A stretch of 64,000 nt of DNA from Acidimicrobiia bacterium (GTDB lineage: Bacteria > Actinomycetota > Acidimicrobiia > Spongiisociales > ZC4RG35). Each line of letters begins with the position of its first letter. The first letter of the stretch is position 1. The position numbers were made by a program, and so were the translations under genes. Positions 4,549 through 28,649 of this stretch are shown in pieces. The stretch lies in assembly GCA_965248705.1 (NCBI GenBank), contig CBDFJY010000002.1, positions 1,322,980 through 1,386,979 on the forward strand, in the 5' to 3' direction. The notes beneath the pieces are model-generated. The model saw only the letters and a list, made by a program, of their open reading frames with translations, did no database searches and was not told where the DNA came from.

Positions 4549-5625
4549 ATGGAGCCGAAATCACAGGAGAGTTCCGTCGAAACGGTGGAGTGGGATGGCG
4601 AAGTCGTAAAGCTGATTGACCAGACTCGGCTCCCCCACCAACTGGTCATCCTGGAAATCTCGGATGTGCCGACTCTGGTGGCGGCTATCCAGCGGCTGTC
4701 GGTGCGGGGCGCTCCCGCTATCGGGGTAGCCGGCGCCTACGGGGTGGCCTTGGCGGTTCGCCACCACGGCACGCAGGGCCCCGAACTCGATGAGGCGATC
4801 GCCGCGCTCCGCTCGGCCCGCCCCACCGCTGTCAACCTGGCCAAGATGGTGGATCGGACGGCTGCTTTGGTGTCCCAGGGCTTGGAAAGGGTGCTGGACG
4901 AAGCCCACAACATCCGCGATGAGGAGCTGGCCGCCTCCATCTCCATGGGCGAATACGGAGCGGATCTGGCGGACGAGTTGATTGGCGAGGCGGCGGCGCG
5001 AACCATGACCATCTGCAACACCGGCGGGCTGGCCACGGTCGCCCGGGGGACGGCGCTGGCTGTCATCCAGACGCTTCACGAACGCGGACGCCTGGAGATG
5101 GCGCTCCCCGTCGAAACCCGTCCCCTCCTGCAGGGAGGGCGTCTCACCACCTGGGAACTGGCCCGGATGGGGGCGCCGTTCCGGCTGCTGGTGGACGGTG
5201 CCGGGCCGTTTCTCCTGGCCAGGGGAGAGGCCAATCTGGTGCTGGCCGGCGCCGACCGGATAGCCCGTAACGGCGATGTGGCCAACAAAATCGGCACTTT
5301 CAGCCTGGCGCTGGCCGCCCGCCACGCCGGGGTGCCGTTCATAGTGGTGGCTCCCGAGTCGACAGTCGATCTCGACACTCCGTCCGGCGCCGAAATAGAC
5401 ATAGAGGACCGGGGATCGAGGGAGGTGGTTTCCCTGGCGGGAGTGGACGTTGCGCCGCCCACCGCCGAGGCGCTGAACCCGGCCTTCGACATCACCCCCG
5501 CCGAATTCATCACCGCTATCGTTACTGATCGGCGGGTCATCAGGCCTCACCACGGCCAAACTCCCGAGAATGTCCCCTGGGGAGCGCTCAGGCGTTCCCG
5601 TGAGGGGGAGACAGCACCAAAATGA
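4549..5625 (+). CDS. mtnA: methylthioribose-1-phosphate isomerase / eIF-2B alpha-beta-delta family (MtnA-like)
   Basis: ..KLIDQTRLPHQLVILEISDVPTLVAAIQRLSVRGAPAIGVAGAYG.. and ..TICNTGGLAT..VLAGADRIARNGDVANKIGT.. are hallmarks of MtnA and the ribose-1,5-bisphosphate isomerase family. It is divergent from mtaD with a 20-bp gap. Confidence 0.75.
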   Translation: MEPKSQESSVETVEWDGEVVKLIDQTRLPHQLVILEISDVPTLVAAIQRLSVRGAPAIGVAGAYGVALAVRHHGTQGPELDEAIAALRSARPTAVNLAKMVDRTAALVSQGLERVLDEAHNIRDEELAASISMGEYGADLADELIGEAAARTMTICNTGGLATVARGTALAVIQTLHERGRLEMALPVETRPLLQGGRLTTWELARMGAPFRLLVDGAGPFLLARGEANLVLAGADRIARNGDVANKIGTFSLALAARHAGVPFIVVAPESTVDLDTPSGAEIDIEDRGSREVVSLAGVDVAPPTAEALNPAFDITPAEFITAIVTDRRVIRPHHGQTPENVPWGALRRSREGETAPK

Positions 5626-5640
5626 GAAGGAGAAAGCGAC

Positions 5641-6672
5641 ATGAGAAACCGAAGAGTGGTTCTGGGAATCACAGTCATGCTGGCCCTTGCCTTGTTGGCC
5701 TCGGCCTGCGCCGAAGAAGAAGAAGCCGCACCCGACGGCCCGAGTTTGATCTATGTAACCCCCAATCCGATTGGCGTTAACAAGTTCCTGGAACTGGGCC
5801 AAGTCGGCACCCAGCGGGTGGCCGAGGAAATGGGAGGGTCTTGGAAAACCTTTGAGTCGACCAACGACTCCGACCGGCGCGCCAACGTCGAGGCCGCCAT
5901 TGACGAGGCGCCCGACGTGGTGGTGCTCACCACCTTCACACTCCTCGAGTTGGCCGACGAAGTTTCCAAGGCCAATCCCGATCAGCAGTTCATTCTGATC
6001 GACGCCTGTCCCAACGAGCCTGCCGCCAACCTGCACTGCGGGGTTTTCCGGGAGCACGAAGGGGCCTACCTGCTGGGCATCATGGCGGGCCGTCTCAGCC
6101 AGGCCAAGCAGATAGGCTCGGTAGTGGCGCTGGACATTCCGTTCCTGCACCGCTGGTCCGACAGCTTCGCGCTGGGCGCCCAGAGCATCGATCCTTCCAT
6201 TACCGACACGCAAGTGTTCATCGGTGGCGACAATCCCTTCTCCGATCCGGCTCGCGCCAAGGAACAGGCGTTGGCGGTGGCGGCGCGCGGCGCCGATCAC
6301 ATCTTCGCAGTGGGCGCCGGGTCCAACGGCGGCATTTTCGAAGCCGCCCAGCAGGAGGGCTTCTTGAGCTATGGTGTGGATATCAACCAGTGCCCGGACG
6401 CTCCGGGAAGCATCGTTGACAACAACCTGAAGCTGGTGGATGTCCTGGTCGAACAGTTAGCGAAGCAGGTGCTGGACGGAACGGCCGGCTCGGTGGTGGC
6501 CTTCGGTCTGGCCGAGGGCGGCACCGGTGTGGTGGCCCTCTTCTCCGATGACGAACTAGCAGCAAGCGAGTGTGTGATTGCCGACCATCCCGATATCGTG
6601 GCCGAGGTCCGCGCCGCCCGGGACGCCATCGTGGCAGGCGACATCGTAGTCCCCGACCCCCTGTTCGGTTGA
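5641..6672 (+). CDS. BMP-family ABC transporter substrate-binding lipoprotein (nucleoside-binding PnrA-like)
   Basis: Lipoprotein signal peptide MRNRRVVLGITVMLALALLASAC, where LASAC is the lipobox. BMP/PnrA-like body. It is immediately followed by the ATPase and two permeases. Confidence 0.75.
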   Translation: MRNRRVVLGITVMLALALLASACAEEEEAAPDGPSLIYVTPNPIGVNKFLELGQVGTQRVAEEMGGSWKTFESTNDSDRRANVEAAIDEAPDVVVLTTFTLLELADEVSKANPDQQFILIDACPNEPAANLHCGVFREHEGAYLLGIMAGRLSQAKQIGSVVALDIPFLHRWSDSFALGAQSIDPSITDTQVFIGGDNPFSDPARAKEQALAVAARGADHIFAVGAGSNGGIFEAAQQEGFLSYGVDINQCPDAPGSIVDNNLKLVDVLVEQLAKQVLDGTAGSVVAFGLAEGGTGVVALFSDDELAASECVIADHPDIVAEVRAARDAIVAGDIVVPDPLFG

Positions 6673-6679
6673 TGACTTC

Positions 6680-8203
6680 TTGACCTTCGAGCTGGAGCTC
6701 CGCGGAATAACCAAGCGGTTCCCCGGCGTCGTTGCCAACGACGCGGTGGACTTGGCGGTGCGGCCCGGAGATATCCACGCCATTGTCGGCGAGAACGGGG
6801 CAGGCAAGACCACCCTGATGTCGTTGCTCTACGGACTGTTCCCCCCCGACGAGGGAGAGATCCTCATCAGGGGGGAACCGGTCCGTTTCTCATCGGCGTT
6901 GGACGCCATCGGGGCCGGGCTGGGCATGGTCCATCAGTCATTCAAACTGTTCCCGACCCTGAGCGTGGCCGACAATGTGGTGTTCCGCCAGGAACCCACC
7001 CGTGGCGGGCTCATCGACCGAGCAGCCAGCGCCGTCCGGGTCCGGGATCTGGCCGACCGGTACGGCTTGGCGGTGGATCCCGAGGCAGCGGTGGAGGATC
7101 TCCCGGTGGGAGTACTGCAGCGGGTAGAGATACTGAAGGCTCTCTACCGGGACGCGCAGGTCCTCATTCTGGATGAGCCCACCGCGGTGCTCACCCCCCA
7201 GGAACGGGACCAGCTGTTCGAGGTTATCCGGAGACTGCGTGACGCGGGGCGAACGATTCTCTTCATCACCCACAAGCTGGGGGAGGTGATGGCGATCTCC
7301 GACCGAGTGACCGTACTCCGCAACGGTCGGTCGGTGGCCAACCTGGTGACCGCCCAGACCAACCCGACCGAGATAACCTTGCATATGACCGGCCGGGCGG
7401 TCGACTTGCATCGGAGGGCCCCCGAACACGAGCCCGACCGGGTCGTGCTCGAGGTGGAGAGTCTCACCGTGCTGGGCGGCCATGGGCGGCCGGTAGTGGA
7501 TGACGCTAACTTCGAGGTGAGATCGGGGGAGATAGTGGGAATAGCCGGGGTGGCGGGAAACGGCCAGAGCGAGTTGATCGAGGCGCTCTGCGGGCTGCGG
7601 GAGGCGGCCTTTGGCTCGGTGACCCTATCGGGTAAGGACATCACCGGTGTCGACGTGGCCGGACGGCGAGATGCCGGACTGGCATACATACCCGAGGATC
7701 GCTACGGGGTGGGTACCACCCGTCAGGCATCGGTCTCCGAGAACCTCCTGATGGGTCATCACCGGAGAACGAAGGTCCAGCGTAAGGGCTGGTTCGACCG
7801 CCGCGCGGTCACCGAACTCACCCGACGGCTGGTGGAGGTGTTCGGGATCAAGGTGGGTTCGGTATCAGATCCGGTTTCAACGCTCTCGGGCGGGAACCTG
7901 CAGAAGGTGGTGGTGGCTCGGGAGATGGAATACGGTTCGCCGCTCCTCATCGCCGAGCAGCCCACCCGCGGACTCGACATCGGCGCCATCGAGTTCGTTC
8001 ACAGCCAGTTAGTGGATTACCGGGACCAGGGCGGAGCGGTGCTGATGGTGTCGGCCGAATTGTCGGAGATCCTAGCGCTGAGCACCCGCATCCTGGTGAT
8101 GTTCGAGGGGCGCATCGTGGCGAGTCTTGATCCCCGTAGCGTCGCCGAGCCCGAGATCGGCCTTTACATGACCGGAGCGCACCTAGAGGCAGCGGTTGCT
8201 TAA
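6680..8203 (+). CDS. ABC transporter ATP-binding protein with duplicated ATPase domains (nucleoside/sugar type)
   Basis: GENGAGKTTLMS (Walker A) in the first half and a second NBD (GVAGNGQSEL) in the second half. LSGGNLQKV signature motifs are present. Confidence 0.85.
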   Translation: MTFELELRGITKRFPGVVANDAVDLAVRPGDIHAIVGENGAGKTTLMSLLYGLFPPDEGEILIRGEPVRFSSALDAIGAGLGMVHQSFKLFPTLSVADNVVFRQEPTRGGLIDRAASAVRVRDLADRYGLAVDPEAAVEDLPVGVLQRVEILKALYRDAQVLILDEPTAVLTPQERDQLFEVIRRLRDAGRTILFITHKLGEVMAISDRVTVLRNGRSVANLVTAQTNPTEITLHMTGRAVDLHRRAPEHEPDRVVLEVESLTVLGGHGRPVVDDANFEVRSGEIVGIAGVAGNGQSELIEALCGLREAAFGSVTLSGKDITGVDVAGRRDAGLAYIPEDRYGVGTTRQASVSENLLMGHHRRTKVQRKGWFDRRAVTELTRRLVEVFGIKVGSVSDPVSTLSGGNLQKVVVAREMEYGSPLLIAEQPTRGLDIGAIEFVHSQLVDYRDQGGAVLMVSAELSEILALSTRILVMFEGRIVASLDPRSVAEPEIGLYMTGAHLEAAVA

Positions 8204-9290
8204 GCGGTTCCTGGACGAACTCCGGAGTATGAGCCAACGGGCGTTGGTGAGTCCGGTGACCTTCTCGTTGCTCTTTGCCTTTGCTCTGGCCGCCGCCATT
8301 GTGGCTGTCACCGGTGGTGATCCCCTGGCGGCGGGGGAGGAGATGTTCACCGGGGCGGTCACCGGCTCCGGGCTGCGCAACACCCTGGGCCGAGCGATCC
8401 CGATAGTGGGTATGGCCCTGGCGGTCTCTATCGCCTTTCGATCGGGAATCATCAATCTGGGGGGAGAGGGTCAGATGGTGATCGGCGGGCTGGCAGGGAC
8501 GATCGTGGCCATATACGTGCCGGGTCCGGGGATTCTGATCGTCCCCCTGGCGATGCTCACAGGAGCCGTGGTGGGCGCCCTGTGGGCGCTCCTCCCCGCC
8601 TACGGTCAGACCAGGCTTCGTCTTCCCATTCTCATCACCACCCTGCTCCTCAATTACGTGGCCCGCGCCATCACCGGATACCTGGTGCGGTTCCCGCTGG
8701 CCGACGTTTCGGTCACTCTGGCGACCACCCGCCAGGTTCCCGAGTCCGCCCGCATGCCCAAGATGCCGGTCTTCGGAGGAGTCAGCCTGTCGCTGATTCT
8801 TGTCATATTGCTGGTGGTGCTTCTCTGGATGGTGTACACCCGCACCGTGGCTGGCTACGAGACGCAGATGGCAGGCTTCAACATGCGCTCCGCCCGCTAC
8901 GGGGGCATCGATGTGGAGCAGCGCACAGTACAGGTGATGGTGGTGGGCGGGGCGATCGGGGGACTGATCGGGACCCATCTCATCATCGGCGAGGCGATTC
9001 GTTACATCGACGGCGAGTTGGTGCTGAGCGGCTTTGCCTGGACCGGTCTCCTGGTCGCCCTCTTGGCGGTGAACCGGCCCATTCCCATTTTCATTACGGG
9101 GCTCTTCTTCTCGGGTCTTCAGATCGGCGGGCTGGCGATGCAGCGGAACGCCGGCGTGTCGTGGCGCCTATCGCAGGTGTTGCAGGCGGTGGTGATCGTG
9201 GCGGTGGCTTGTCGACTTGCCATCCGAAGGGGTGAGCGGCGCCAGGCCGAGCCAGGGGAAGCCGAAGCGGCGGGGGTGGGGGAGGTCTGA
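8196..9290 (+). CDS. ABC transporter permease
   Basis: Polytopic hydrophobic protein. Its start overlaps the ATPase stop, which is classic operon coupling. Confidence 0.75.
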   Translation: MLKRFLDELRSMSQRALVSPVTFSLLFAFALAAAIVAVTGGDPLAAGEEMFTGAVTGSGLRNTLGRAIPIVGMALAVSIAFRSGIINLGGEGQMVIGGLAGTIVAIYVPGPGILIVPLAMLTGAVVGALWALLPAYGQTRLRLPILITTLLLNYVARAITGYLVRFPLADVSVTLATTRQVPESARMPKMPVFGGVSLSLILVILLVVLLWMVYTRTVAGYETQMAGFNMRSARYGGIDVEQRTVQVMVVGGAIGGLIGTHLIIGEAIRYIDGELVLSGFAWTGLLVALLAVNRPIPIFITGLFFSGLQIGGLAMQRNAGVSWRLSQVLQAVVIVAVACRLAIRRGERRQAEPGEAEAAGVGEV

Positions 9291-10207
9291 TGTTCGAACA
9301 GATCTTCGACACCGCTCTCTTCGACTCGGCCACCCGGGCCATGATCCCCATCCTGCTGGCGGCGCTCGGCGGCATGATCTGCGAGCGTGCGGGGGTCTTC
9401 CAGATCGCCCTGGAGGGAATCATGCTAGCGGGGGCTTTTGCGGCGGTGGCCGGTTCCTATCTGGCCCTGAGCTCCGGCGTGGGGGTGATCTTCGGGATGG
9501 CGGCCGGGATGCTGATTGCCCTCGCTCTTGCATACGGCACGGTTACCCGCCAAGGCGATTCCATCGTGCTGGGGATAGCCTTGAACCTGCTGGCGATGGG
9601 CCTCACCGGCTTCTTACTACCGCAACTCTTCGATGTGCGAGGGGTCTTGCAGCATCCCCGCATCGACGGGCTGGACAGGATCGCCATTCCGGGCCTGTCA
9701 CAGCTCCCCTGGGTCGGGCCGGTGCTCTTCGACAACACCGTCCCCACCTACCTGGCGCTGCTGCTGGTACCGGCCCTGTGGGTGTTCCTGTTCCGCTCTC
9801 CGATTGGTTTGCGTCTCCGGGGGGTGGGTGAGCGGCCCCTGGCTGCGGAGACTCTCGGGGTGAGTCCGACCGTCTACAAATACGGAGCGGTTTTGGCGTC
9901 CGGCGCCTTGGCCGGGATGGCCGGGGCTCAACTCTCATTGGGCAACGTGGTGCAGTTCGCCGAGAACATGTCCAGCGGGCGGGGCTGGGTGGCGGTGGTG
10001 GCGGTGATGTTGGGCCGGGCCCATCCGGTGGGTGTCCTGGCTGCCGCCGCTCTTTTCGCTTTGGCCGAGGCGCTTGGCTTCCGCTTCCAGGGCAACGGCC
10101 TCCCGGTGCAGATAACCGACGCCCTTCCCTTCGTGGTGACCCTGTTGGCTCTGGTGGTCGCTCGCAAGCGATTCGCCCGCCTTCTCGACCTGACCACCGC
10201 CGGTTGA
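9290..10207 (+). CDS. ABC transporter permease
   Basis: Second permease. The start ATG overlaps the previous stop (ctgATGttc). The C-terminus is ..LLALVVARKRFARLLDLTTAG. Confidence 0.75.
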   Translation: MFEQIFDTALFDSATRAMIPILLAALGGMICERAGVFQIALEGIMLAGAFAAVAGSYLALSSGVGVIFGMAAGMLIALALAYGTVTRQGDSIVLGIALNLLAMGLTGFLLPQLFDVRGVLQHPRIDGLDRIAIPGLSQLPWVGPVLFDNTVPTYLALLLVPALWVFLFRSPIGLRLRGVGERPLAAETLGVSPTVYKYGAVLASGALAGMAGAQLSLGNVVQFAENMSSGRGWVAVVAVMLGRAHPVGVLAAAALFALAEALGFRFQGNGLPVQITDALPFVVTLLALVVARKRFARLLDLTTAG

Positions 10208-10249
10208 GTAGGCTGGGTTTGGGTGAGAGGCGGGGCCGGGAGCGGCCGC
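10135..10249. repeat. direct repeat copy A (3' end of permease gene plus about 40 nt downstream)
   Basis: ggtgaccctgttggctctggtggtcgctcgcaagcgattcgcccgccttctcgacctgaccaccgccggttga.. recurs imperfectly at 11204..11318. Confidence 0.7.
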
Positions 10250-10313
10250 GCTGTTCCTGATCACATCCAAGAAGCGATGACCGACCGGAAATGGGAATAC
10301 AAGGAGCAATGTC

Positions 10314-11159
10314 ATGAGCAACAGGGGGCTTTGGGAGCGTTTAGAGCGACGCTTGAATCACAAGATTGAGAAATTCGCGGGAGTAGCGGGAGTTTCAGTG
10401 ATGGATCTGAAGCGTGGAGACGGAGTGTCCATACGTGGCAGCGAGGTGTTTCCCACGGCGTCCACTATCAAGATCCACATTTTGACACAGCTCTTGAGCC
10501 GTGCCGAGAGAGGTGAGATAGACCTTGGTGAGCGCGTCAGGATCACACCCGAGATGCGCGGAACAGGTAGTGGAGTAATCCACTATATGGAAGGTGAGCC
10601 CGAGTTGTCAGTGCTGGATATAGCCATCCTGATGATCATTGTGTCGGACAATACGTCGACGAACATGTGCATAGATTGGGCGGGCATGGAGGCAACCAAT
10701 GCGCTGTTGCGTGACATGGGACTGACCGCGACGAAGTTACGGCGCAAGATGATGGACAGCGAGGCTATACACAGGGGTGACGAGAATGTTTCGACGCCGA
10801 ACGAACTCGTTGCGATGCTGGAGATGCTGTATCGGGGTAAGCCGTCATCCAAAGTGGCGGAGCAGGTCCTGCGGATCATTGGTAAGCCCAAGACTGCACC
10901 GTTGAACCGGGCGATACCGTCCAACTTGGTGGTTGCGAACAAATCGGGCGGCATGGAACGGGTCCGCTGCGATGCTGGAATTGTGTTTCTGGGAAACCGA
11001 CCCTACGCCATAGCGGTGATGACCAAATTCGCATTGGAGGACGTCGTAGGCCGGGAAGCATTCATCATGGATCTGGCACGGGACGTACATCAGACGATGG
11101 TGGCACTGGACAGCACCAACGATTTCGGGTTGGGCGTACTTACGTACACGGGTTACTAG
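10314..11159 (+). CDS. class A beta-lactamase-like serine hydrolase (no signal peptide detected)
   Basis: STIK (SxxK), SDN and KSGG (KTG-like) motifs in canonical order and spacing. The coding region is visibly lower in GC than its flanks. Confidence 0.65.
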   Translation: MSNRGLWERLERRLNHKIEKFAGVAGVSVMDLKRGDGVSIRGSEVFPTASTIKIHILTQLLSRAERGEIDLGERVRITPEMRGTGSGVIHYMEGEPELSVLDIAILMIIVSDNTSTNMCIDWAGMEATNALLRDMGLTATKLRRKMMDSEAIHRGDENVSTPNELVAMLEMLYRGKPSSKVAEQVLRIIGKPKTAPLNRAIPSNLVVANKSGGMERVRCDAGIVFLGNRPYAIAVMTKFALEDVVGREAFIMDLARDVHQTMVALDSTNDFGLGVLTYTGY

Positions 11160-11203
11160 CAACAGTGTTTGCTTGTTGCGACAATGGAGGATTTGCGTAA
11201 CCC

Positions 11204-11318
11204 GGTGACCCTGCTGGCCTTGGTGATCGCTCGCAAGCGTTTCGCCCGCCCCCGGGACCTCACCACCGCCGGATGACTAAGCTGGAATCTGTGAAAGGAA
11301 AGGACCGGAGGCGGCCGT
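11204..11318. repeat. direct repeat copy B (diverged remnant of the permease 3' end)
   Basis: ggtgaccctgctggccttggtgatcgctcgcaagcgtttcgcccgcccccgggacctcaccaccgccggatga.. encodes PVTLLALVIARKRFARPRDLTTAG*. Compare VVTLLALVVARKRFARLLDLTTAG* for the real C-terminus. Confidence 0.7.
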
Positions 11319-11352
11319 AGAATTCCTATACCTGTTCGGGTTAGCGGTCGGG

Positions 11353-11838
11353 TTGCCGCTATTGCTGGTTTTCGCTTTTGGGGGCGAAGTGGGCGCCGAC
11401 ACCGACACTGGTTCGGACGGAGGTTTTTTCTCGCGGGTGTCGATCAGTGCTGTCGCCTTTGGGGCTACCTTCTTTGGACTTTCCGGTCTGTTCACCGTGT
11501 GGGTGGGGCTATCCCCTCTGCCGGGGGTGTTGATCTCCGCGGGGGTGGGAGTTCTGGGGGCAGCCTTTCACAACGCCCTTTTTGGTTGGCTGCGCCGCAC
11601 GGAGGCGTCCAGTGAAGTCACCAACCAGGACCTCGAAGGCGCCACCGGTTTGGTCGTGTTGCCGGTTTCTACCGACAGGCGGGGGCAGATAGTTGTAGAA
11701 GTGGCGGGGCAGCGACTTCGGATTAGCGCCTCCCCCGCCAATCCGGAAGATCGGCTGGCAAAGGGAATCAGGGTGAAAATCGTGGAAATGGATGGCGGCG
11801 TGGCTCTGGTAATAGACTTAGGCACAGAAAGAAAGTAG
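11353..11838 (+). CDS. NfeD-like membrane protein (partner of flotillin)
   Basis: N-terminal hydrophobic segments followed by a C-terminal OB-fold-like region (GQIVVEVAGQRLRI..VKIVEMDGGVALVI). It lies immediately upstream of an SPFH/flotillin gene. Confidence 0.6.
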   Translation: MPLLLVFAFGGEVGADTDTGSDGGFFSRVSISAVAFGATFFGLSGLFTVWVGLSPLPGVLISAGVGVLGAAFHNALFGWLRRTEASSEVTNQDLEGATGLVVLPVSTDRRGQIVVEVAGQRLRISASPANPEDRLAKGIRVKIVEMDGGVALVIDLGTERK

Positions 11839-13142
11839 TGAATATGTTTGGAAATGCAGGAACTCCGTTGTTGCTCGGCGCGGCAGTTGCGTTGGTGATA
11901 TTGATTCTGATCGGAATCGTCAAGTCTTTGGTGGTGATTTGTCCTCCCAACCGGGTGGCGGTGATTTCCGGACGCAAGCGCGCACTGAGCGACGGGCGGA
12001 AGGTGGGCTATCGCCTGCTACAAGGAGGACGGACGCTGCGTGTCCCTCTCATTGAGCGGGTCCAGTGGATGAGTCTGAACACCATTCCGTTGGAAGTGGC
12101 GGTGACCAACGCCTATTCGCGGGGGACGATTCCTCTGAATGTGGCGGGGATCGCCAATGTGAAAGTGTCAAGCCGTGAAGGATTGCTGGAAAACGCCGCT
12201 GAGCGGTTCCTGGGACGGTCCAGTGCTCAGATCGGACAGATTGCGAAGGAGACGCTGGAGGCCAACCTGCGAGGCGTGTTGGCGACCTTGTCGCCCGAAG
12301 AGGTGAATGAAGACCGACTCAAGTTTTCGCACCAGTTGATTGATGAGGCCGACGACGACATCAAGACCCTGGGTCTGGAACTTGATGTCCTCAAAATCCA
12401 GAACGTCACCGACGATGTCCAGTATTTGACCTCGGTGGGGCGCCTTCTCACCGCCGAGGTGATTCGTAATGCCCGTGTGGCGGAAGCAGAACGCAAAGCA
12501 GAGGCGGAAAAGGCCGAGGCTGCCGGTCGGCAAGTTGGACAGGTCGCCGGCCTTGAGGCGGACAGGGCGATCGTGGTGGAGAACAATGGTCTGCGGGTCC
12601 GTACCGCCGAACTGGAGGCCGTCTCGAACGCACGAGAGGAGGAAGCGCTGGTGGCGGGAGAGGTCGCCAAAGTCGTGGCCAGTCAGGAGTTGGAAGGCCA
12701 GCGCATCGAGCTGGAGAAACGACGCGTGGAGGCGGCGGTGGTGGTTCCGGCCCGAGCCGAATTGGAAGCTCAACAACTGCATGCCCGGGCCGAAGCAGCG
12801 TCGATCATCGAGGACGGAAGAGCCCAGGTTGAGGTGTTCAAACTCCTCACCGATCAGTATCAGGCAGCCGGCAAGGACGGGCACCATGTGCTGGTGCTCA
12901 ACATGCTTCCCGAACTGATCGACAAGATCGTCGCTACCGTGCAAGGAGTCAAGATCGACCGGGTGGCGGTGGTGGACTCCAACAGCGACCGGGGCAGCAG
13001 CGGTGGAGGTATACCCGGCCTGGTTTCCCAACTGCCCGCCGCTCTGGTGGCCCTGACGGAACAGATAGATGCCGCCACCGGAGTGGACATCCTTGGCTCG
13101 CTACGCCGCCATGTCGACGAACCGACGGAGGACAACGGGTAG
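11838..13142 (+). CDS. flotillin / SPFH (band 7) domain protein
   Basis: N-terminal TM, an SPFH domain, then a long Ala/Glu-rich coiled coil (AEAERKAEAEKAEAAGRQ..). Typical of YqiK/FloA-like flotillins. Confidence 0.8.
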   Translation: MNMFGNAGTPLLLGAAVALVILILIGIVKSLVVICPPNRVAVISGRKRALSDGRKVGYRLLQGGRTLRVPLIERVQWMSLNTIPLEVAVTNAYSRGTIPLNVAGIANVKVSSREGLLENAAERFLGRSSAQIGQIAKETLEANLRGVLATLSPEEVNEDRLKFSHQLIDEADDDIKTLGLELDVLKIQNVTDDVQYLTSVGRLLTAEVIRNARVAEAERKAEAEKAEAAGRQVGQVAGLEADRAIVVENNGLRVRTAELEAVSNAREEEALVAGEVAKVVASQELEGQRIELEKRRVEAAVVVPARAELEAQQLHARAEAASIIEDGRAQVEVFKLLTDQYQAAGKDGHHVLVLNMLPELIDKIVATVQGVKIDRVAVVDSNSDRGSSGGGIPGLVSQLPAALVALTEQIDAATGVDILGSLRRHVDEPTEDNG

Positions 13143-13149
13143 GCCTAGC

Positions 13150-13212
13150 CACAAGTCGGCTTTTGCCGGCTTGCTCGTATGGGTGGAGGGCTACCAAGAA
13201 CCCGATGAACAA
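13150..13212 (-). pseudogene. remnant copy of the 3' end of membrane-protein gene 15341..15700
   Basis: Minus-strand translation FIGFLVALHPYEQ matches the C-terminus FLGFLVALHQYEES of the intact gene. The nucleotide repeat gtatgggtggagggctaccaagaacccgatgaa matches gtattggtggagggctaccaggaacccgaggaa at 15371..15403. Confidence 0.6.
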
Positions 13213-13307
13213 TCCCCGCCGACCAGGGCCGGGCAGCCCAAACTGTCGCAGTGCGCCGCCAACCTTGGTGGAACAGCCGGAGGCAACGGCTGTAGGTTGG
13301 GTAACGC

Positions 13308-14309
13308 TTGGAGGTCCCTATGGAAAGCGCTCTGCAGACCGAGCTCGAACTGGAGATTGATCATCCGAAGCAGGGTCGCGTAAAGACACCTGTTTACCTC
13401 ATCCAAGCTGGGATGACTGATAAAATTAGCCCTATCAGATCGCACCAAATCGAAGTTTCGCCTATTCCCGCGGTAAACGTCGCCTCGGTGCCGCAACGCA
13501 GTCCGCTCCGCTATCCAGGCGGCAAGACATGGCTGGTCCCTCATATCCGTGCTTGGCTCAGCAGCTTCTCCGAGAGGCCCAGGTTGCTGGTCGAACCCTT
13601 CGCCGGCGGGGGGATTGTTTCACTGACCGCCGTTATGGAAAATTTGGTTGAACGTTGTCTTATGGTTGAGCTGGATCGCGACGTGGCTGCCTTCTGGCAC
13701 GCAGCCCTGCGTAAAGGGGAGGAACTCGCTGAAAAGGTGTCATGCTTCACGCCCACGAGAGAAGCGGTGCACTTGCTGGCGAGCCGCGAGACACACGACA
13801 TCGTGGAACACGGTTTTCGCACCCTCGTGTTGAATCGGACCCGCCGGGGTGGCATTCTGGCTCCGGGCGCCTCGTTCAGCCGAGTGGGTGAAAACGGCAA
13901 AGGGCTTGCTTCTCGCTGGTATCCCGAAACGATCGTGAATCGCTTGCAGGAAATAACGAAACACGCCGACCGCATCAGCTTCTGTGAGACGGATGGCATG
14001 AAGATGCTGGAAGCTTTCTCGGGCGAACTTGGTGGTGGCGCAGCTGTTTTCGTGGATCCGCCTTACACCGCCGGGGGCAAACGGGCCGGCAAGCGATTGT
14101 ACGCGCACAGCGAAATAGACCACCCACTGCTCTTTGAGATGCTCGCCGAGAGTGGCGCCGATTTTCTTATGACATACGATCTCTCATACGAAGTCGCCGC
14201 CTTGGTGCAAAAGCACGGCTTCCATGCTGTCCAGGTGACCATGAAGAACACGCACCACGCCCGGATTCCTGAATTGGTGATCACCCCTCGACCTGTGTTT
14301 GGTCCATGA
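13308..14309 (+). CDS. DNA methyltransferase, Dam-like D12 class (N6-adenine type motifs)
   Basis: LRYPGGK, EPFAGGG (FxGxG SAM motif I) and FVDPPY (DPPY motif IV). The true start may be the internal ATG near 13413. Lower GC than the host. Confidence 0.8.
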   Translation: MEVPMESALQTELELEIDHPKQGRVKTPVYLIQAGMTDKISPIRSHQIEVSPIPAVNVASVPQRSPLRYPGGKTWLVPHIRAWLSSFSERPRLLVEPFAGGGIVSLTAVMENLVERCLMVELDRDVAAFWHAALRKGEELAEKVSCFTPTREAVHLLASRETHDIVEHGFRTLVLNRTRRGGILAPGASFSRVGENGKGLASRWYPETIVNRLQEITKHADRISFCETDGMKMLEAFSGELGGGAAVFVDPPYTAGGKRAGKRLYAHSEIDHPLLFEMLAESGADFLMTYDLSYEVAALVQKHGFHAVQVTMKNTHHARIPELVITPRPVFGP

Positions 14310-15184
14310 GCACCCGTTACGGGATCGCGGAATGGTATGGCCGCCTATTTTCAGAACTCTCTCCCGAAACCCGGCATACCCTGGCAAGGAAGGCGTTGCG
14401 AGAAGATCCAGAGGCTCCGCCCTGTCCGTTTCAGAAGAACAAACCTCCCTGCCGCAAGCGTGGCGGAGTGTGTTCCCTGCGCCGTTACCAAAGAGGTGAG
14501 AGTGATCGCATCGGCCTTCCCAAGGGCGATCCGGTCGTAGTGTGCCCTGCTCGATTTGAGGAAGGACAATTATTGGTCGAATGGCTCGCTGAGATTGTCG
14601 GTTTCTCATCGAGCGAGGCGAGGCTGGCCCGCGAAGTGCCTTTCATGCAGGGCACCAGCACCGGTAAACCGGCTGGGAAGATAGATTTGGTAGTGGCCAA
14701 GGCCTCCAACGGCGACCTCAAATGGTATGGCTTGGAGATCCAGGCTGTTTATTTCTCAGGCAGAGGAATGAACTCCGAGTATTTGGGTCTTCGAGATGAC
14801 GACTGTAAAGACCCGCCGTTTCCGGGAGCGGTTCGCCGGCCGGATTGGCGATCCTCAAGTGCAAAGCGCCTCATGCCACAGTTGCAGATCAAGGTACCAA
14901 CCCTCCGTCGGTGGGGATCGAAGCTAGCTGTAGCGGTGGATCGGCCTTTTTTCGATTCGATGGGAGGGCCGAGTTCTGCTCCAAGCAGTGATCTCAATGA
15001 TGGTGATATCGTGTGGATGGTCCCGAGGCTCCTACCCAACGACACGGGGGGCAACGCGTTGTCCCGTGGCCACTGGGAAGTTCTTACCTTGGAGGAATCC
15101 AGCAGGAGACTTCTTGCCGCGGAAACCATCCCGCGTCGCGCCTTCGAACAAACACTAAGAGAGAAGCTGGAGCCCATCGGCTAG
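14306..15184 (+). CDS. putative type II restriction endonuclease, NotI-family-like
   Basis: Its ATG overlaps the MTase TGA (ATGA). A Cys cluster PPCPFQKNKPPCRKRGGVCSL, then VVCPARFEE and YGLEIQAVYFSG, resemble the NotI motifs TGTCPFL..SCVK..RGVCVV, LVCPNRALD and YGVLEIQTMDFHG. The comparison is from memory. Confidence 0.5.
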   Translation: MSTRYGIAEWYGRLFSELSPETRHTLARKALREDPEAPPCPFQKNKPPCRKRGGVCSLRRYQRGESDRIGLPKGDPVVVCPARFEEGQLLVEWLAEIVGFSSSEARLAREVPFMQGTSTGKPAGKIDLVVAKASNGDLKWYGLEIQAVYFSGRGMNSEYLGLRDDDCKDPPFPGAVRRPDWRSSSAKRLMPQLQIKVPTLRRWGSKLAVAVDRPFFDSMGGPSSAPSSDLNDGDIVWMVPRLLPNDTGGNALSRGHWEVLTLEESSRRLLAAETIPRRAFEQTLREKLEPIG

Positions 15185-15340
15185 CTAGAGCCTTATGGCC
15201 TTTAGTGATCTGATTGCATATCGTGCAAAGAGCATGGCCGGTTCGTTTTTACAAAATACCTTATTGGTAAGGGAAAACCGCCAAGGGCGTGACGCAGCAA
15301 AGTTATGACCGAATATGGCCTCCGGGTCATGCGCTCGGGT

Positions 15341-15700
15341 TTAGAGGTCGGCTTTTTCGCGGGATTCTTCGTATTGGTGGAGGGCTACCAGGAACCCGAG
15401 GAAGAGCACGGCCGAGACCACGGTGAAGGTGATTGGGATGATCCGCACCTCGAAGGCGTTGAGTCCCTCGATGTTGGCCGGGCGGGGACCTCGGGGAGCG
15501 TAGAGGACGAAAAGCAGGCTGCCGATGGTCATCCAGGCCGAAATCCCGGCCCCGGTCACCAAGAAAGCCAGCTTCTTTCCCAGGTTGGTGTAGTTCAGTA
15601 GGTAGACGGTGCCGTAGAAAACCAGGATCGCCGTCACCAAGAGGATGATTCCGGTGACGAACAGATTGGCCGAAAGCAGGGATCGAAACAGTTCACGCAT
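15341..15700 (-). CDS. small integral membrane protein (3 predicted TM)
   Basis: Hydrophobic 119-aa ORF, last gene of the respiratory operon. Its 3' terminus is duplicated at 13150..13212. Confidence 0.5.
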   Translation of the reverse strand: MRELFRSLLSANLFVTGIILLVTAILVFYGTVYLLNYTNLGKKLAFLVTGAGISAWMTIGSLLFVLYAPRGPRPANIEGLNAFEVRIIPITFTVVSAVLFLGFLVALHQYEESREKADL

Positions 15701-17420: not shown

Positions 17421-18287
17421 CTATATGCAGGAGGGGCCTTGCGGATAGGATACGGATTGGGCGATGGCCCGGGGGGTTTCCACGATCATTCCGGTTCTGA
17501 TGACCAACCGTCCTTCCTCGGTGACGTTGACCGCGAATCGGTCGAGATTCCGGGGGGCGGGACCGGCGAAATACTCTCCGATCGAGTTGTACTTGGATCC
17601 GTGGCAGGGGCATTCGAAACCTTGGGAGTCGTTGCACCAGGGCACCCGACATCCCAGGTGGACGCAGCGCTGATAGAGGGCCATCAGCCCACCGGCGACC
17701 ACGTCTCTGTCCGCGAATTGCTGGCTCATCTCGGTGGGCGCCGGGACTACATAGGCGCGGGCGTCGGGGATGAAAGCCGGGGTGACCAGGCCGGCGCTGT
17801 CGGTCATCGCCGGTACCAGGTCGGCGGCGAGTCCGGCGTCCACATCGCTCCCGAAGCCTCCGGTTATTTTGGGCCACAAAAAGGCCAGGATCTCTATCCC
17901 CATGATGCCAAACCACGCGACCGACATGGCGGCCAGGGACCGGTTGAAGAACTGCCGGCGGGTGACCCCCACCTCCTCGGGGGAGGCTTCCACGATCACC
18001 TGAGATTCGGTGATGGGCGCCAGCGCCTCCATCACCTCGACCGGGGCCTCTTCTTCCGCAACGGCCGGGGCTTCGGCCTCCGACGGCTCCGTGTCCACAG
18101 AGGTTTCCAGCACCAAATCCATGGAGGGAGCGGAACGGTCGGCCTTCCGGGCGCGGCGTTCTACCCGCTTGGGCCAGAGAGAGGCCGAGTCGGGATCCGC
18201 GCGGCGGAAGGCGATGGTGAAGGCGCCAATCGCGGCGGCGATGGCCACCGCCGCCACCCCGATGATGATCAGCTCGACGCTGTCCAT
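17421..18287 (-). CDS. Rieske [2Fe-2S] iron-sulfur protein
   Basis: CVHLGC..CPCHGS Rieske boxes. An internal twin-arginine-like TRRQFF sits ahead of the hydrophobic anchor. There is an extra N-terminal TM and an acidic extension. Confidence 0.85.
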
Positions 18288-25966: not shown

Positions 25967-26342
25967 AATGTCCCGGTGGGGTTGACAGCGTAAGCCCAGG
26001 TTACGAGTAAAGGCTAGAGACTTGGCGATTCAAAAGAAGAAGCCCACCCCGGCCGGGCCTGATCATGAGATCATCCCGACTCCGAGTCGGAAGAAAATTC
26101 CTAGATCGGCAAACAATCCAAGCCAAAAGAGTTGACTCCTGTCACAGGCCGGATACACACTGATGAAAGCTGAAACCACCTCACGGCCCGATCCGACGCG
26201 TCGTTCGGACCGCTCCAGGGATCATATTTCAAAAAGGCACCCCTCCAGAGGACTGGCAGAGCGCGTTTTGACCAAAGGAACGGTGGCGAGCTCCTATGAT
26301 GCTATGATTTCCAAATCGGGTTCGGGAGGTGTTGGGCTGGGG

Positions 26343-27389
26343 TTAGGAGGGGGGTGCTTCGCTTGATGGCGGCGGGTTTTCAAGTAGTCGGTATAGCTGT
26401 CGGGCGATGTACCGTTTGAGGCAGCGGCGGGTTTCTCGGGTGGTTTTGCCTTGGCTGGTGCGTTTGGTGATGTAGGCGCGGGTTTTGGGACAGTATCGGG
26501 CGCGGCTGATGGCGATGGTGTGGATGGCTTGGTTGAGTTGGCGGTCACCGCGTCGGTTCAGCCGGTGGCGGGTGTGTTGTCCCGATGAGGCTTCCAAGGG
26601 GGCTACGCCGGCTAGCCGAGCGAAGGCTGCTTCGTTGCGGCAGCGGCGAGGATGGGACCAGGCAATGAACACTTGGGCGGCTGTGATGGGGCCGATCCCG
26701 GGTTGTTGGAGCAGTTGGGGAGCTACGGTTTGGACTAGTTCGGTGATAGTTGTTTTGAGTTGGGCTGCTTCGGTGGTGAGTGCATTGATTCGCCGGGCGA
26801 GGGAACGCATGGCCTGTTTGGTGGCGGTGTGTTCGTTGGCCGGTGCTGATGTGAGTCGAAACCTGTGGCATTTAGCGACCAGAGCAGCAGTGGTAACACC
26901 TCGGAGTTGGTCTCTGAGATCGACTGGCGCGGTCACTAGGAGAGCTTTCAGTTCGTTGATCGCCGATGTTCTAGCTGTTATTGCGCCTCGTCGGGTGGTT
27001 TCCAACACTCGTAAGGCTTCTCGGTCTCCCCGAACTCGCGGTACAGAAGGTCGGAAGCGGCCCAGCGCCTGGCGGGCGGCCCGGCGAGCGTCCAGGGCAT
27101 CGGTCTTGGCGCCGTCGCCGCTGGGGGTGGGATCGTTGAACTCGGTCACCAGTTCCCCACTAGCGACCAAATAGGAGGTCACACCAGCTCCGTAACTGCC
27201 TGTGCCTTCCACAGACCATACCCGATCGGCGGCCTGGGTGTATTGGTCTACCCACTTCAACAACCGCTTGTATCCCAGCCCGCTGGTCTCGAACACCGCA
27301 GACGCCTGTTCTCCGGTGGTGGCGGTGTCCACTACCGACGCGGTGACCCGGTCACGATCCGGGTCGATCCCGATCACATGTTCTACCAA
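26343..27389 (-). mobile_element. IS110-family transposase gene (copy 1)
   Basis: ..HVIGIDPDRDRVTASVV.. DEDD N-terminal domain. C-terminal ..EASSGQHTRHRLNRRGDRQLNQAIHTIAISRAR.. is the Transposase_20-like region. The ATG-defined ORF extends to 27560, but the conserved core begins near 27389. Confidence 0.75.
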
Positions 27390-27474
27390 TGAGGCCAACA
27401 CAACAACCTTCTTTCCTTGTTTGCTACCTGGTTTGTCCAAGGAGGTGCGATCCGAACGGCAGGACTGTGATGAG

Positions 27475-28649
27475 TCACACCCCTTTGGGGTGGACAGGCT
27501 TCTGATCAGGCCAGCGCGGTACGCCAGGTCGGCGCTGGTGGTCAATGTCGGACAGATCATAGGAAAGACACCAAACCGGGTCAGTCAAATTGAGGGTCAC
27601 GACATCAATTCCAGCACCGTACCTGATAGCCTCCAAGGGCACCCGCCATATTCTCACAGTCAAATTGGGGGGGGGGGGTTGGAGGTGTTTGTAGACGCGG
27701 TTGGAGATGTGGCGTTTGAGGTTGCGGATGGCTTCTTTGGGGGTTTTGCCTCGGGCGAGTTGTTTTTGGTAGTAGCGGTGTCCTTCGCTGCCGGGTTGGG
27801 AGATTTGGGTGAGGGCTGCGGTGTAGAGGGCTTGGTTGATGCGGCGGTTTCCTCCTCGGTTGAGTCGATGGCGTGTTATGCGTCCCGAGCTGGCTTCCAG
27901 TGGTGCGGTGTCGTTGGCCATGGCAAATTTGGCTTTGGTGGGGTAGTGGGCGGGGTTCCCGACCTGGGCGATGATCTCGGCGGCGGTGAGGTTGCCGATG
28001 CCGTGGATGTGGGTGAGGGTGGCGCCGGTGGTTTTGACCACCGTGGTGATCTGTTGGGTGAGTTCTTGGATCTGTCGGCTCAGGGAGCGTATGTGGCGGG
28101 TTCTTTGTTTGGCGATCCGGGCGCGGGTGGTGGTGTCACGGGCGAGCATTCGTGTCACGCGGTCAACAGCGGACGGGTTGGTGAGAGCGGTGGGAAGTTT
28201 GGGATGATCGCCGCGCAGTTGGGTGAGATCGGCGTGGAGCCGGTTGATCTGGCGGGTGCGGGTTTCGACCAGTTCACGGCGGTATCCGACCAAAAGCCGC
28301 AGGTCTTCTGTGATACCGTCGGGGCGGCTACCCGGGCGATTAACAAAGCGTCAGTGGAATCGTTCTTGACAGGCGTGCGTTGTCTCCGCCGTTGCCTACT
28401 GGTCATCTGTGGTGGTACTTCCACCACCTCGATACCCGCTTCCACAAGCGCCAAAGCCGCGGGACGTCCGTAATGACCGGACCCTTCGATAGCTACCCGC
28501 CCGGCGCCGGTTTCCCGCGCCCAGGCCACCAACCGGGCACGACCCCCGGAGGTGTTAGGGACACAACGGGTCCCGACCTGGCGCAGGGCCTGGTCGATAA
28601 CACAGCCCATCAAAGTATCCTTGTGCGAGTCGATTCCAATAACAAACAT
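27475..28649 (-). pseudogene. IS110-family transposase (copy 2), split by a frameshift
   Basis: The N-terminal frame reads MFVIGIDSHKDTLMGCVI..ALLIARVAAP and runs to junk after about 28300. The C-terminal frame reads ..LLVGYRRELVETRTRQINRLHADL..EASSGRITRHRLNRGGNRRINQALY... A single-nucleotide shift near the gccgcccc run at about 28300 would join them. The C-terminus reads through a C12 tract (PPPP). Confidence 0.7.
27667..27678. repeat. G12 homopolymer tract
   Basis: caaattgggggggggggggttggagg. It encodes PPPP on the minus strand inside the IS110 copy 2 C-terminus. With 11 G the frame would stop two codons later (..PPPPI*), which resembles the copy 1 C-terminus. Confidence 0.9.

What the first reader, a model, noticed from the sequence alone, without database searches (positions are those of the whole stretch)
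13150..15403. Low-GC restriction-modification island (Dam-like MTase plus NotI-family-like REase) inserted at the 3' end of a respiratory-operon gene
A roughly 2.1-kb segment (13213..15340) of clearly lower GC carries an overlapping (ATGA) M-R gene pair. The first is a D12-class methyltransferase with DPPY and FxGxG motifs. The second is a Cys-cluster nuclease whose motifs parallel NotI (CPF..C..GVC, VCP.R, YG.EIQ..F.G). NotI-family nucleases pair with cytosine methylases in the systems I recall, so pairing with a Dam-like MTase would be an unusual combination. The segment sits between the intact 3' end of membrane-protein gene 15341..15700 and a 60-bp diverged copy of that same 3' end at 13150..13212. 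No integrase or transposase is adjacent.
Basis: partly seen in the sequence, partly recalled or inferred. Interest (0 to 1): 0.7.

Follow-up and report, generated by a model that had tools for sequence, protein, structure and literature searches.

The report
Ordinary NotI-family restriction-modification gene pair
This is an intact but ordinary two-gene restriction-modification system of an already annotated, widespread type, and it probably reached this Acidimicrobiia genome inside a ~10-kb stretch of DNA recombined in from a sister lineage, not as a self-contained island flanked by its own target duplication.

Summary
The sequence observations hold. A methyltransferase gene (13320-14309) overlaps a nuclease gene (14306-15184) by ATGA. 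GC is 57.2% against 62.7% for the window. A 49-68 nt copy (84% identical) of the 3' end of the 119-aa membrane-protein gene lies at 13150-13222.

The "unusual pairing" claim fails. The same M-R pair, usually with the same 4-bp overlap, occurs in relatives, in Gammaproteobacteria and elsewhere. RefSeq plasmids already annotate "NotI family restriction endonuclease" next to "DNA adenine methylase". The methylase's closest solved relative is M.CbeI, an N4-cytosine enzyme that has DPPY, so even "adenine" is unproven.

The "island with target duplication" reading is only partly right. The pseudo-3' end also occurs in a relative that has no R-M, so it is older than the R-M.

The window is 95-97% identical to a sister clade from at least 5057 to 15231, but only about 85% identical to the right of that. 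The joint lies 45 bp past the nuclease stop codon and is not homologous. The pair therefore sits at the edge of an imported tract.

Novelty is low.

The parts
13150..13222 (-). Pseudo-3' end of the 119-aa membrane-protein gene (gene nt ~285-360). It has a 2-nt deletion and no stop codon in frame. It is an older scar, not an R-M target duplication.
   Evidence: 49 nt at 84% identity ungapped; gapped alignments. The same copy is present in L002, which lacks R-M, and in L023.
13310..13314 (+). GGAGG Shine-Dalgarno-like motif 5 nt upstream of the methylase ATG.
   Evidence: Read directly from the sequence.
13320..14309 (+). Alpha-class (Dam/D12-like) DNA amino-methyltransferase, 329 aa. Motif I is EPFAGGG and motif IV is DPPY. 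The target base (m6A or m4C) is undetermined.
   Evidence: PF02086 E 1.2e-10. TIGR00571 35.5 bits, below the cutoff of 114.85. PADLOC MTase_II 2.5e-31 and PD-Lambda-5_B 9.9e-45. 7M6B/M.CbeI E 1e-8. 44-71% identical to the partner methylases of homologous nucleases.
14306..15184 (+). NotI-family PD-(D/E)xK restriction endonuclease, 292 aa. Its start overlaps the methylase stop (ATGA). Invariant residues are C40, C49, C56, C80, D127, E144 and Q146.
15185..15231 (.). Tail downstream of the nuclease that is still colinear with relative L023. It marks the end of the clade-A-like tract.
   Evidence: blastn: window 8307-15231 matches L023 1-6926 at 96.4%; alignment.
15229..15231 (.). Non-homologous recombination or deletion joint with 2-3 bp of microhomology. 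Compared with L023, orf87 and the Peripla_BP_6 gene are missing here.
   Evidence: Three-way alignment of window, L023 and L002; gene map of L023.
15232..15340 (-). Spacer downstream of the membrane-protein gene, of the genome's own (lineage B) type. It holds a terminator-like hairpin at 15279-15294.
   Evidence: Homologous to L002 12070-12184; terminator scan.
15341..15700 (-). Intact 119-aa membrane-protein gene, the last gene of the cytochrome b / Rieske / dihaem cytochrome c operon.
   Evidence: ORF list. Conserved downstream of cytochrome c in 20 of the 22 loci fetched as relatives. Operon content.
5057..15231 (.). Tract that is 94.6-96.4% identical to sister clade A (L008, L002, L023). 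It probably begins near 4549. The R-M pair lies at its right-hand end.
   Evidence: blastn and pairwise matrices. 90%-identity cluster membership of proteins along the window.
11204..11285 (+). A second scar of the same kind in the same neighbourhood: an 82-nt, 84%-identical copy of the permease-gene 3' end (10135-10216). Together they flank the low-GC bla-like gene at 10314-11159.
   Evidence: the repeat finder D1; alignment; GC.

Best explanation
**What it is.** The region encodes an intact Type II restriction-modification system.
- A Dam-like alpha-class amino-methyltransferase marks the host's copies of a specific site that is still unknown.
- A NotI-fold PD...ExQ endonuclease carries a Cys4 metal-binding motif and cleaves unmarked copies.
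- The methylase gene comes first and the nuclease start codon overlaps its stop codon (ATGA). I infer that nuclease translation is coupled to methylase translation.
- The pair belongs to a conserved, highly mobile two-gene cassette found in several phyla and on plasmids.

**How it got here.** The genome has a distinct backbone (lineage B) that is about 85% identical to its nearest known relatives.
- The cassette lies at the right-hand end of a tract of about 10.2-10.7 kb (from 5057 or further left, to 15231) that is 95-97% identical to sister clade A.
- The most likely history has three steps.
  1. In clade A, a block of methylase, nuclease and orf87 was inserted into an older remnant of the membrane-protein gene's 3' end, next to Band7.
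  2. A clade-A segment carrying this block was then imported into lineage B by recombination.
  3. The crossover at the far end was homologous. The near end is a non-homologous joint 45 bp past the nuclease stop. This joint formed either during the import or through a later 1.7-kb deletion, and it removed orf87 and the binding-protein gene.

**What is shown and what is inferred.**
- Shown: gene content, family membership, conservation of the pairing, the step in identity, the position of the joint, and the remnant's presence in a relative without R-M.
- Inferred: enzymatic activity, site specificity, the direction of the import and the order of events.
For: **Identity of the two genes.**
- Pfam, NCBIfam and PADLOC hits.
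- Invariant Cys4 and D127/E144/Q146 across 53 homologues and the plasmid copies. NotI is documented to have Fe-Cys4 and Q in place of K (PMC4081073).

**The pairing is conserved.**
- Relatives L003, L004, L009, L012, L013 and L023 carry the pair.
- So do Gammaproteobacteria (methylase 71%, nuclease 63% aa identity) and four other genomes, all with the M-then-R 4-bp overlap.
- Plasmid pairs have methylases 44-48% identical to this one.

**The genome is a mosaic.**
- Window 8307-15231 matches L023 at 96.4%, but 15331-18948 matches it at only 86.9%. The same step appears against L008 and L002, which are 92-99% identical to each other on both sides.
- Cytochrome c and NadE have no relative above 88% and 84% aa identity.
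- All 7 right-side proteins tested are singletons at 90% identity. In contrast, 9 of 10 proteins tested in the tract (4.5-15.2 kb) cluster with other contigs, 7 of them with listed clade-A genomes; the methylase and nuclease clusters have 4 members (own contig, L023's and two ENA contigs).

**The joint.** Three-way alignment places it at 15229-15231.

**The remnant is older than the R-M.**
- L002 keeps gene nt 154-220 and 301-354 and has no R-M. The window and L023 keep nt 285-354.
- L023 differs from L008 by a 2453-bp block made of the remnant, methylase, nuclease and orf87.
Against: - The left boundary of the tract was not seen at the DNA level. It rests only on cluster membership, and that clustering is imperfect: Band7 is a singleton even though it is 98% identical to L008's copy.
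- The direction of transfer is inferred from tract lengths (at least 37 kb of lineage-B type against about 10.7 kb of clade-A type).
- The source is a metagenome-assembled genome, and no independent contig spanning the joint was found.
- No activity or methylation data exist.
- R-M copies in more distant relatives are about 73-79% identical. That is also compatible with long residence in this neighbourhood followed by local reshuffling.
Confidence: 0.65

Rival explanations
1. One reading: a discrete 2.1-kb R-M island inserted into the 3' end of the membrane-protein gene. [quoted passage not shown]
For: - R and M lie between two direct copies longer than 30 bp, the insert is shorter than 20 kb, and no mobility gene is present. 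These are three of the criteria of Furuta et al. 2010 (PMC2853133).
- The repeat is real.
- GC is lower than the surroundings.
Against: - L002 has both copies of the 3' end but no R-M.
- In L023 the two copies also enclose orf87 and the binding-protein gene, and that binding-protein gene is present in relatives without R-M.
- The copies are only 84% identical, whereas published cases are about 94-98%.
- Homology with the L002-type spacer shows the right junction is at 15229, not at the gene's end.
Confidence: 0.08
2. Reverse direction. The genome is basically clade A and has carried the R-M pair for a long time. The cytochrome operon side, from 15.3 kb rightwards, is the segment replaced by divergent DNA, or is simply fast-evolving.
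For: - The genome was not found as its own species representative in the GTDB scan; the best cytochrome c match was 88%.
- The step in identity does not by itself give a direction.
Against: - Divergence continues for at least 37 kb. DNA identity is 80-88% out to 29 kb, NadE at 47-49 kb is 84%, and 7 of 7 proteins from 17 to 52 kb are singletons at 90%.
- Genes at 1.2-4.5 kb also lack clade-A cluster members.
Confidence: 0.15
3. Assembly artefact. The contig is a chimera of two co-occurring Acidimicrobiia strains joined at this point, so the adjacency of the R-M pair and the membrane-protein gene is not real.
For: - The source is a MAG.
- Related strains co-occur in the same study series.
- No independent contig with the joint was found.
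Against: - Strain-switch chimeras form inside shared homologous sequence and keep gene order. Here the joint is non-homologous and deletes 1.7 kb.
- The tract also appears to end on the left near 4.5 kb, which would require two switches.
Confidence: 0.1

Closest known systems
NotI restriction endonuclease (Nocardia otitidiscaviarum; PDB 3BVQ) and Pfam family PF12183
   Same: - Strong family HMM hit.
- Four conserved Cys, and a PD...ExQ catalytic motif with Q in place of K.
   Different: - Only 18% identical to NotI.
- Not detectable by phmmer, by a 12-sequence profile, or by Foldseek.
- 292 aa here, against a 342-residue NotI chain in 3bvq_A.
- The partner is a Dam-like alpha-class methylase.
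- The recognition site is unknown and need not be GCGGCCGC.
Plasmid-borne "NotI family restriction endonuclease" plus "DNA adenine methylase" pairs (Aeromonas veronii NZ_CP121823, IncP-1 pEST4011 NC_005793, Thermus brockianus pTbrSNM4-1c)
   Same: Both proteins are homologous to the window's pair. Nucleases are 35-39% identical and methylases 44-48% identical. This is the same R-M lineage.
   Different: - The gene order is reversed (R then M): a 53-133 bp gap in the Aeromonas and pEST4011 pairs, a 14-nt overlap in the Thermus pair.
- The pairs are plasmid-borne, next to replication, mobilisation or integrase genes.
M.CbeI (PDB 7M6B), the alpha-class N4-cytosine methyltransferase of Caldicellulosiruptor bescii
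   Same: - It is the only solved structure hit by sequence (E 1e-8, spanning residues 65-302).
- It shares the Dam-like alpha-class architecture and the DPPY motif.
   Different: - The match is weak (38 bits, E 1e-8).
- Its specificity cannot be transferred to this methylase.
R-M mobility classes of Furuta, Abe and Kobayashi 2010 (PMC2853133): insertion with long target duplication, and allelic substitution
   Same: - The R-M pair has no mobility gene, is flanked by a direct repeat longer than 30 bp, and has lower GC.
- Compared with L002, it substitutes for a different gene (the binding-protein gene) between the same flanks.
   Different: - The repeat predates the R-M pair and is only 84% identical.
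- The event coincides with the end of an inter-lineage recombination tract.
Homology-facilitated illegitimate recombination and sequential displacement of cassettes (for example V. cholerae T6SS effector-immunity arrays, PMC5361080; E. coli, PMC3240628). I took these from their abstracts only.
   Same: - One end is anchored by homology and the other is an illegitimate joint.
- Truncated 3'-end remnants of the neighbouring gene are left behind as scars. This neighbourhood has two such scars, each 84% identical to its intact copy.
   Different: - The mechanism is inferred only from comparative sequence.
- Competence or conjugation in these Acidimicrobiia is unknown.

Membership tests
NotI family restriction endonuclease (PF12183) | Family HMM score above the curated gathering threshold over most of the model | tested here: met
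   149.8 bits against a cutoff of 22; profile positions 7-233 of 238; E 1e-43.
NotI family restriction endonuclease (PF12183) | NotI three-dimensional fold | tested here: met
   [not shown]
NotI family restriction endonuclease (PF12183) | Cys4 structural metal site (Fe in NotI) | tested here: inconclusive
   C40, C49, C56 and C80 are invariant in 53 close homologues and in 4 plasmid homologues. I did not check their residue-by-residue equivalence to NotI's cysteines. The metal cannot be tested with these tools.
NotI family restriction endonuclease (PF12183) | PD...(D/E)xK catalytic motif with Q replacing K | tested here: met
   D127 (GKIDLV) and E144-I-Q146 (LEIQAVYFSG) are invariant. The K-to-Q replacement in NotI is stated in PMC4081073.
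NotI family restriction endonuclease (PF12183) | Cleavage at GCGGCCGC (NotI itself) | not testable with these tools
   Word counts in the 64-kb window show no decisive avoidance: GCGGCCGC occurs 7 times against 6 expected.
Dam / D12-class N6-adenine DNA methyltransferase (PF02086, TIGR00571) | Family HMM above threshold over the full domain | tested here: inconclusive
   PF02086 scores 42 bits, above the cutoff of 22, but matches only profile positions 1-71 of 253. TIGR00571 (dam) scores 35.5 bits, far below its cutoff of 114.85, although it aligns over 3-248 of 267.
Dam / D12-class N6-adenine DNA methyltransferase (PF02086, TIGR00571) | Alpha-class motif order: FxGxG (motif I), then the target-recognition region, then DPPY (motif IV) | tested here: met
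   EPFAGGG near residue 92 and VDPPY near residue 245 of the 329-aa protein.
Dam / D12-class N6-adenine DNA methyltransferase (PF02086, TIGR00571) | Methylates the N6 of adenine | not testable with these tools
   The nearest solved relative, 7M6B (M.CbeI), is an N4-cytosine methylase that has DPPY. No solved Dam, T4 Dam or DpnM was hit at E <= 0.1.
Type II R-M operon | Adjacent, intact, co-oriented M and R genes whose linkage is conserved across genomes | tested here: met
   ATGA overlap. Full-length proteins compared with homologues. The same pair is linked in 6 relatives and in 7 of 7 other contexts.
R-M insertion with long target duplication (Furuta et al. 2010) | R and M both in the insert, insert shorter than 20 kb, repeat longer than 30 bp | tested here: met
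   The two repeat copies start 2194 bp apart, and the repeat is 49-68 nt long.
R-M insertion with long target duplication (Furuta et al. 2010) | A related genome without R-M has a single copy of the repeat at the empty site | tested here: not met
   L002 lacks R-M but has both copies. In L023 the copies also enclose the resident binding-protein gene.
Site-specific integrative island | An integrase or recombinase in or next to the element, and att repeats with an identical core | tested here: not met
   No recombinase lies within about 11 kb. The repeats are only 84% identical.
PD-lambda-5 defence system | Both the A and B components are present | tested here: not met
   The methylase matches PD-Lambda-5_B at E 9.9e-45. 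The nuclease matches no PADLOC model at E <= 0.001.

The most novel reading that the evidence does not exclude
This M-R lineage couples a NotI-fold nuclease to an M.CbeI/Dam-like alpha-class methylase. It could recognise a site not yet described for the NotI fold, possibly a long, rare-cutting site protected by m4C or m6A. Its position exactly at the non-homologous end of a ~10-kb inter-lineage import could also mean that the R-M system itself promoted or selected the capture of flanking DNA. That would be an R-M-driven case of homology-facilitated illegitimate recombination in an uncultured symbiont lineage.
Probability: 0.12. Interest if true: 0.45.

Novelty: new member of a known kind. Interest (0 to 1): 0.18.

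Why it matters
This finding matters little on its own. It adds one more uncharacterised specificity to a well-populated Type II R-M family.

Three points have modest value:
- Calling a methylase "Dam-like with DPPY" does not establish that it is adenine-specific.
- The region shows how a gene-sized defence cassette moves between related uncultured Acidimicrobiia lineages by recombination of flanking DNA, without any mobility gene. These lineages include MAGs that look sponge- or coral-associated, judging only from isolate names.
- The space between two convergent operon ends acts as a cassette hotspot, marked by remnants of gene 3' ends.

If the recognition site proved to be a new 8-bp site, the enzyme could be useful as a reagent.

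Tried and rejected
- **Site avoidance.** I looked for palindrome and word avoidance in the 64-kb window to guess the recognition site. Nothing decisive came out. CTAG and CGCG are depleted, CTCGAG has a ratio of 0.41 with z -2.6, and GATC is not avoided.
- **Independent support for the joint.** Exact-protein look-ups of the window's nuclease, membrane protein and cytochrome c were not on record. An exact 31-mer across the joint gave no hit in JGI metagenomes.
- **PD-lambda-5 membership.** Considered and rejected.
- **Origin of the pseudo-3' end.** I tested whether it came from an L012-like genome in which the membrane-protein gene abuts Band7. This is rejected, because the L012 allele is among the least similar.
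- **ORF clustering.** A greedy ORF-clustering map of the loci was too noisy in this high-GC DNA. I replaced it with tblastn and blastn maps.
- **Promoters.** The sigma-70 promoter scan found nothing upstream of the methylase.
Full report
**Observation**

The region holds two co-oriented ORFs. The first runs from 13308 (TTG) or, more likely, 13320 (ATG) to 14309. The ATG is preceded by GGAGG at 13310-13314 and gives the 329-aa length called in the closest relative. The second runs from 14306 to 15184. Its ATG overlaps the first gene's TGA as ATGA.

Pfam gives PF02086 (D12-class methylase, E 1.2e-10, N-terminal 71 of 253 profile positions only) for the first protein. It gives PF12183 (NotI, E 1e-43, positions 7-233 of 238) for the second.

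Segment 13213-15340 is 57.2% GC against 62.7% for the window and falls in the lowest 1.1% of same-size windows. GC3 is 0.61-0.64, against 0.75-0.82 in core genes. The dip is real but modest, and the bla-like/NfeD stretch at 10.2-12.4 kb is equally low.

The direct repeat is real: 13161-13209 matches 15355-15403 over 49 nt at 84%. With a 2-nt indel it extends to about 13155-13222, which corresponds to nt 285-354 of the 360-nt gene. The left copy has lost the reading frame and the stop codon.

No integrase is adjacent. The nearest mobility genes are two IS110-family ORFs at 26.3-28.3 kb.

**The two proteins**

Four cysteines (C40, C49, C56, C80), D127 and E144-x-Q146 are invariant in close homologues and in plasmid homologues that are 28-43% identical. 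NotI is documented to carry an Fe-Cys4 motif and Q in place of the catalytic K (PMC4081073).

The methylase has motif I (EPFAGGG) followed by DPPY, which is the alpha-class order. It scores far below the Dam equivalog cutoff (35.5 against 114.85 bits). It matches PADLOC Type II methylase models and PD-Lambda-5_B, but the nuclease matches no PADLOC model, so this is not PD-lambda-5.

The only solved structure the methylase hits by sequence is 7M6B. The depositors' name says "adenine-specific". However, the structure providers describe it as M.CbeI, an alpha-class N4-cytosine methyltransferase with a conserved DPPY motif (PMC8616854). The target base of the window's methylase therefore cannot be read from its Dam-like appearance.

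**Is the pairing unusual? No.**

- The nuclease has 2362 database relatives, and the top 120 are at least 62% identical.
- Every context I examined for this subfamily shows the same PF02086-like methylase immediately upstream with the same 4-bp overlap. This covers a Gammaproteobacteria MAG (methylase 71%, nuclease 63% identical) and four other genomes. One of these has an IS next to the pair and one has a split methylase.
- RefSeq plasmids already annotate "NotI family restriction endonuclease" next to "DNA adenine methylase". Examples are in Aeromonas, IncP-1 pEST4011 and Thermus. Their methylases are 44-48% identical to this one.
- Other NotI-family members sit next to C5-cytosine methylases.

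The family therefore uses both kinds of partner. This particular M-R lineage is old, widespread and already named.

**Comparative context**

The organism is an uncultured Acidimicrobiia bacterium. Fifteen species representatives share the cytochrome c gene at 83-88% aa identity. The region lies between two convergent units: the cytochrome b / Rieske / cytochrome c / 119-aa membrane-protein operon and an ABC-transporter operon. Its content varies among relatives.

Gene orders in the relatives are as follows:
- L001 and L008 have the membrane-protein gene, then a Peripla_BP_6 binding-protein gene, then Band7.
- L002 has the same order, plus a longer pseudo-copy of the membrane-protein 3' end next to Band7.
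- L012 has the membrane-protein gene directly next to Band7.
- The same M-R pair (72-79% aa identity, also 55-58% GC) occurs in L003, L004, L009 (nuclease truncated), L012 and L013. L014 has the methylase only. In these genomes the pair sits at different positions in the same neighbourhood, in L003 and L009 next to the permease genes.

The closest relative is L023, whose nuclease is 99% identical. It reads Band7, pseudo-3' end, methylase, nuclease, orf87, binding-protein gene, membrane-protein gene. Compared with L008, whose flanks are 99% and 96% identical, L023 carries a 2453-bp block consisting of the pseudo-3' end, methylase, nuclease and orf87.

**The duplication is older than the R-M pair**

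The pseudo-3' ends of the window, L023 and L002 share the same 2-nt deletion and the same substitutions. L002 has no R-M. It keeps gene nt 154-220 and 301-354, while the window and L023 keep nt 285-354.

Both forms must therefore derive from a longer ancestral remnant of at least 200 nt. The M-R-orf87 block was inserted into or beside that remnant. This fails the key criterion for "insertion with long target duplication", namely a single copy of the repeat in the relative that lacks the R-M (PMC2853133).

A second scar of the same kind flanks the low-GC bla-like gene. The permease 3' end at 10135-10216 has an 82-nt, 84%-identical copy at 11204-11285. Both scars are 84% identical to their intact copies, which is about the nucleotide divergence between lineages of this group. 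This fits remnants left when diverged DNA recombined within or near a gene's 3' end. It fits less well with in-place duplication followed by decay. This last point is an inference.

**A mosaic genome with the R-M pair at the seam**

- Window 8307-15231 is colinear with L023 at 96.4% identity, but 15331-18948 matches L023 at only 86.9%.
- The same step appears against L008 (95.5% up to 13141, 87.8% from 15322) and against L002 (94.6% and 84%).
- Those three genomes are 92-99% identical to each other on both sides.
- To the right, divergence continues. DNA identity is 80-88% out to 29 kb. Cytochrome c has no relative above 88%, and NadE at 47-49 kb has none above 84%. Seven of seven proteins between 17 and 52 kb are singletons at 90% identity.
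- On the left, 9 of 10 proteins tested in the tract (4.5-15.2 kb) sit in multi-member clusters, and 7 of those list clade-A genomes. The methylase and nuclease clusters hold only the own contig, L023's contig and two ENA contigs. The three genes tested at 1.2-4.5 kb have no clade-A members.
- This clustering is imperfect. Band7 is a singleton even though it is 98% identical to L008's copy, so the left boundary near 4.5 kb is tentative.

The three-way alignment puts the joint at 15229-15231, 45 bp past the nuclease stop codon. On one side the sequence follows L023. On the other it follows the L002-type spacer downstream of the membrane-protein gene. Only 2-3 bp are shared at the joint. Compared with L023, orf87 and the binding-protein gene are missing.

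**Most likely history and function**

The system most likely works as a standard Type II R-M. The methylase protects a specific site, and the NotI-fold nuclease cuts unprotected copies. I infer from the family that the nuclease acts as a Mg-dependent dimer stabilised by Cys4. The M-then-R order with an overlapping stop and start codon probably couples nuclease synthesis to methylase synthesis. Specificity is unknown.

The pair most likely arrived in this genome as the terminal cargo of a tract of about 10.2-10.7 kb imported from clade A into a distinct lineage. One end was resolved by homology. The end next to the R-M is a non-homologous joint, formed either at import or by a later 1.7-kb deletion.

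Three rivals remain:
- The reverse direction of transfer.
- An assembly chimera, which is unlikely because the joint is non-homologous and the tract seems bounded on both sides.

**Verdict**

This is a new, uncharacterised member of a known and already annotated R-M lineage. The genomic context is a good small example of R-M spreading through recombination of flanking DNA in a cassette hotspot, but that phenomenon has been described before (PMC2853133). Interest is low.

Noticed in passing
window 10135-10216 and 11204-11285: The low-GC (55%) class-A beta-lactamase-family gene at 10314-11159 is flanked by the intact 3' end of the ABC permease gene and an 82-nt, 84%-identical copy of it. This is the same architecture as the membrane-protein 3'-end pair around the R-M genes.
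   Followed up: partly
window 26287-29019 (ORFs 26343-27560 and 27475-28293, minus strand): A stretch with no counterpart in L008 or L002 carries two IS110/IS116/IS902-family transposase ORFs (PF01548, PF02371).
   Followed up: partly
L023 6880-7143 (minus strand); L003 ~18003-18262: An 87-aa ORF that looks as if it starts with a signal peptide (judged by eye) and has no Pfam hit lies immediately downstream of the nuclease in L023. It is also linked to the M-R pair in L003. It is absent from the window.
   Followed up: partly
L009 6912-7544; L014 13504-14415; L034 3071-4004: Several relatives show signs of R-M decay. In L009 the nuclease matches only residues 81-291. In L014 only the methylase remains. 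In L034 the methylase is split into 191-aa and 117-aa ORFs next to an intact nuclease.
   Followed up: no
L025-L027 (Gammaproteobacteria MAG, ERZ25067984) compared with L023 (ERZ25072670): The same M-R pair occurs in a Gammaproteobacteria genome (methylase 71%, nuclease 63% aa identity, about 67% nt identity). Its ENA analysis accession number is close to L023's. This hints at cross-phylum exchange.
   Followed up: no
window 15341-15700 and its orthologues in L001-L022: The 119-aa membrane protein that ends the cytochrome bc-type operon is highly conserved across Acidimicrobiia (64-97% aa identity) but has no Pfam or NCBIfam family. One source labels it "sugar transferase", which looks like a misannotation.
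   Followed up: no
window 11868-13139 (Band7): The 90%-identity protein clustering lists this protein as a singleton even though it is 98% identical to the L008 orthologue. Singleton status in that collection is therefore not proof that close relatives are absent.
   Followed up: yes
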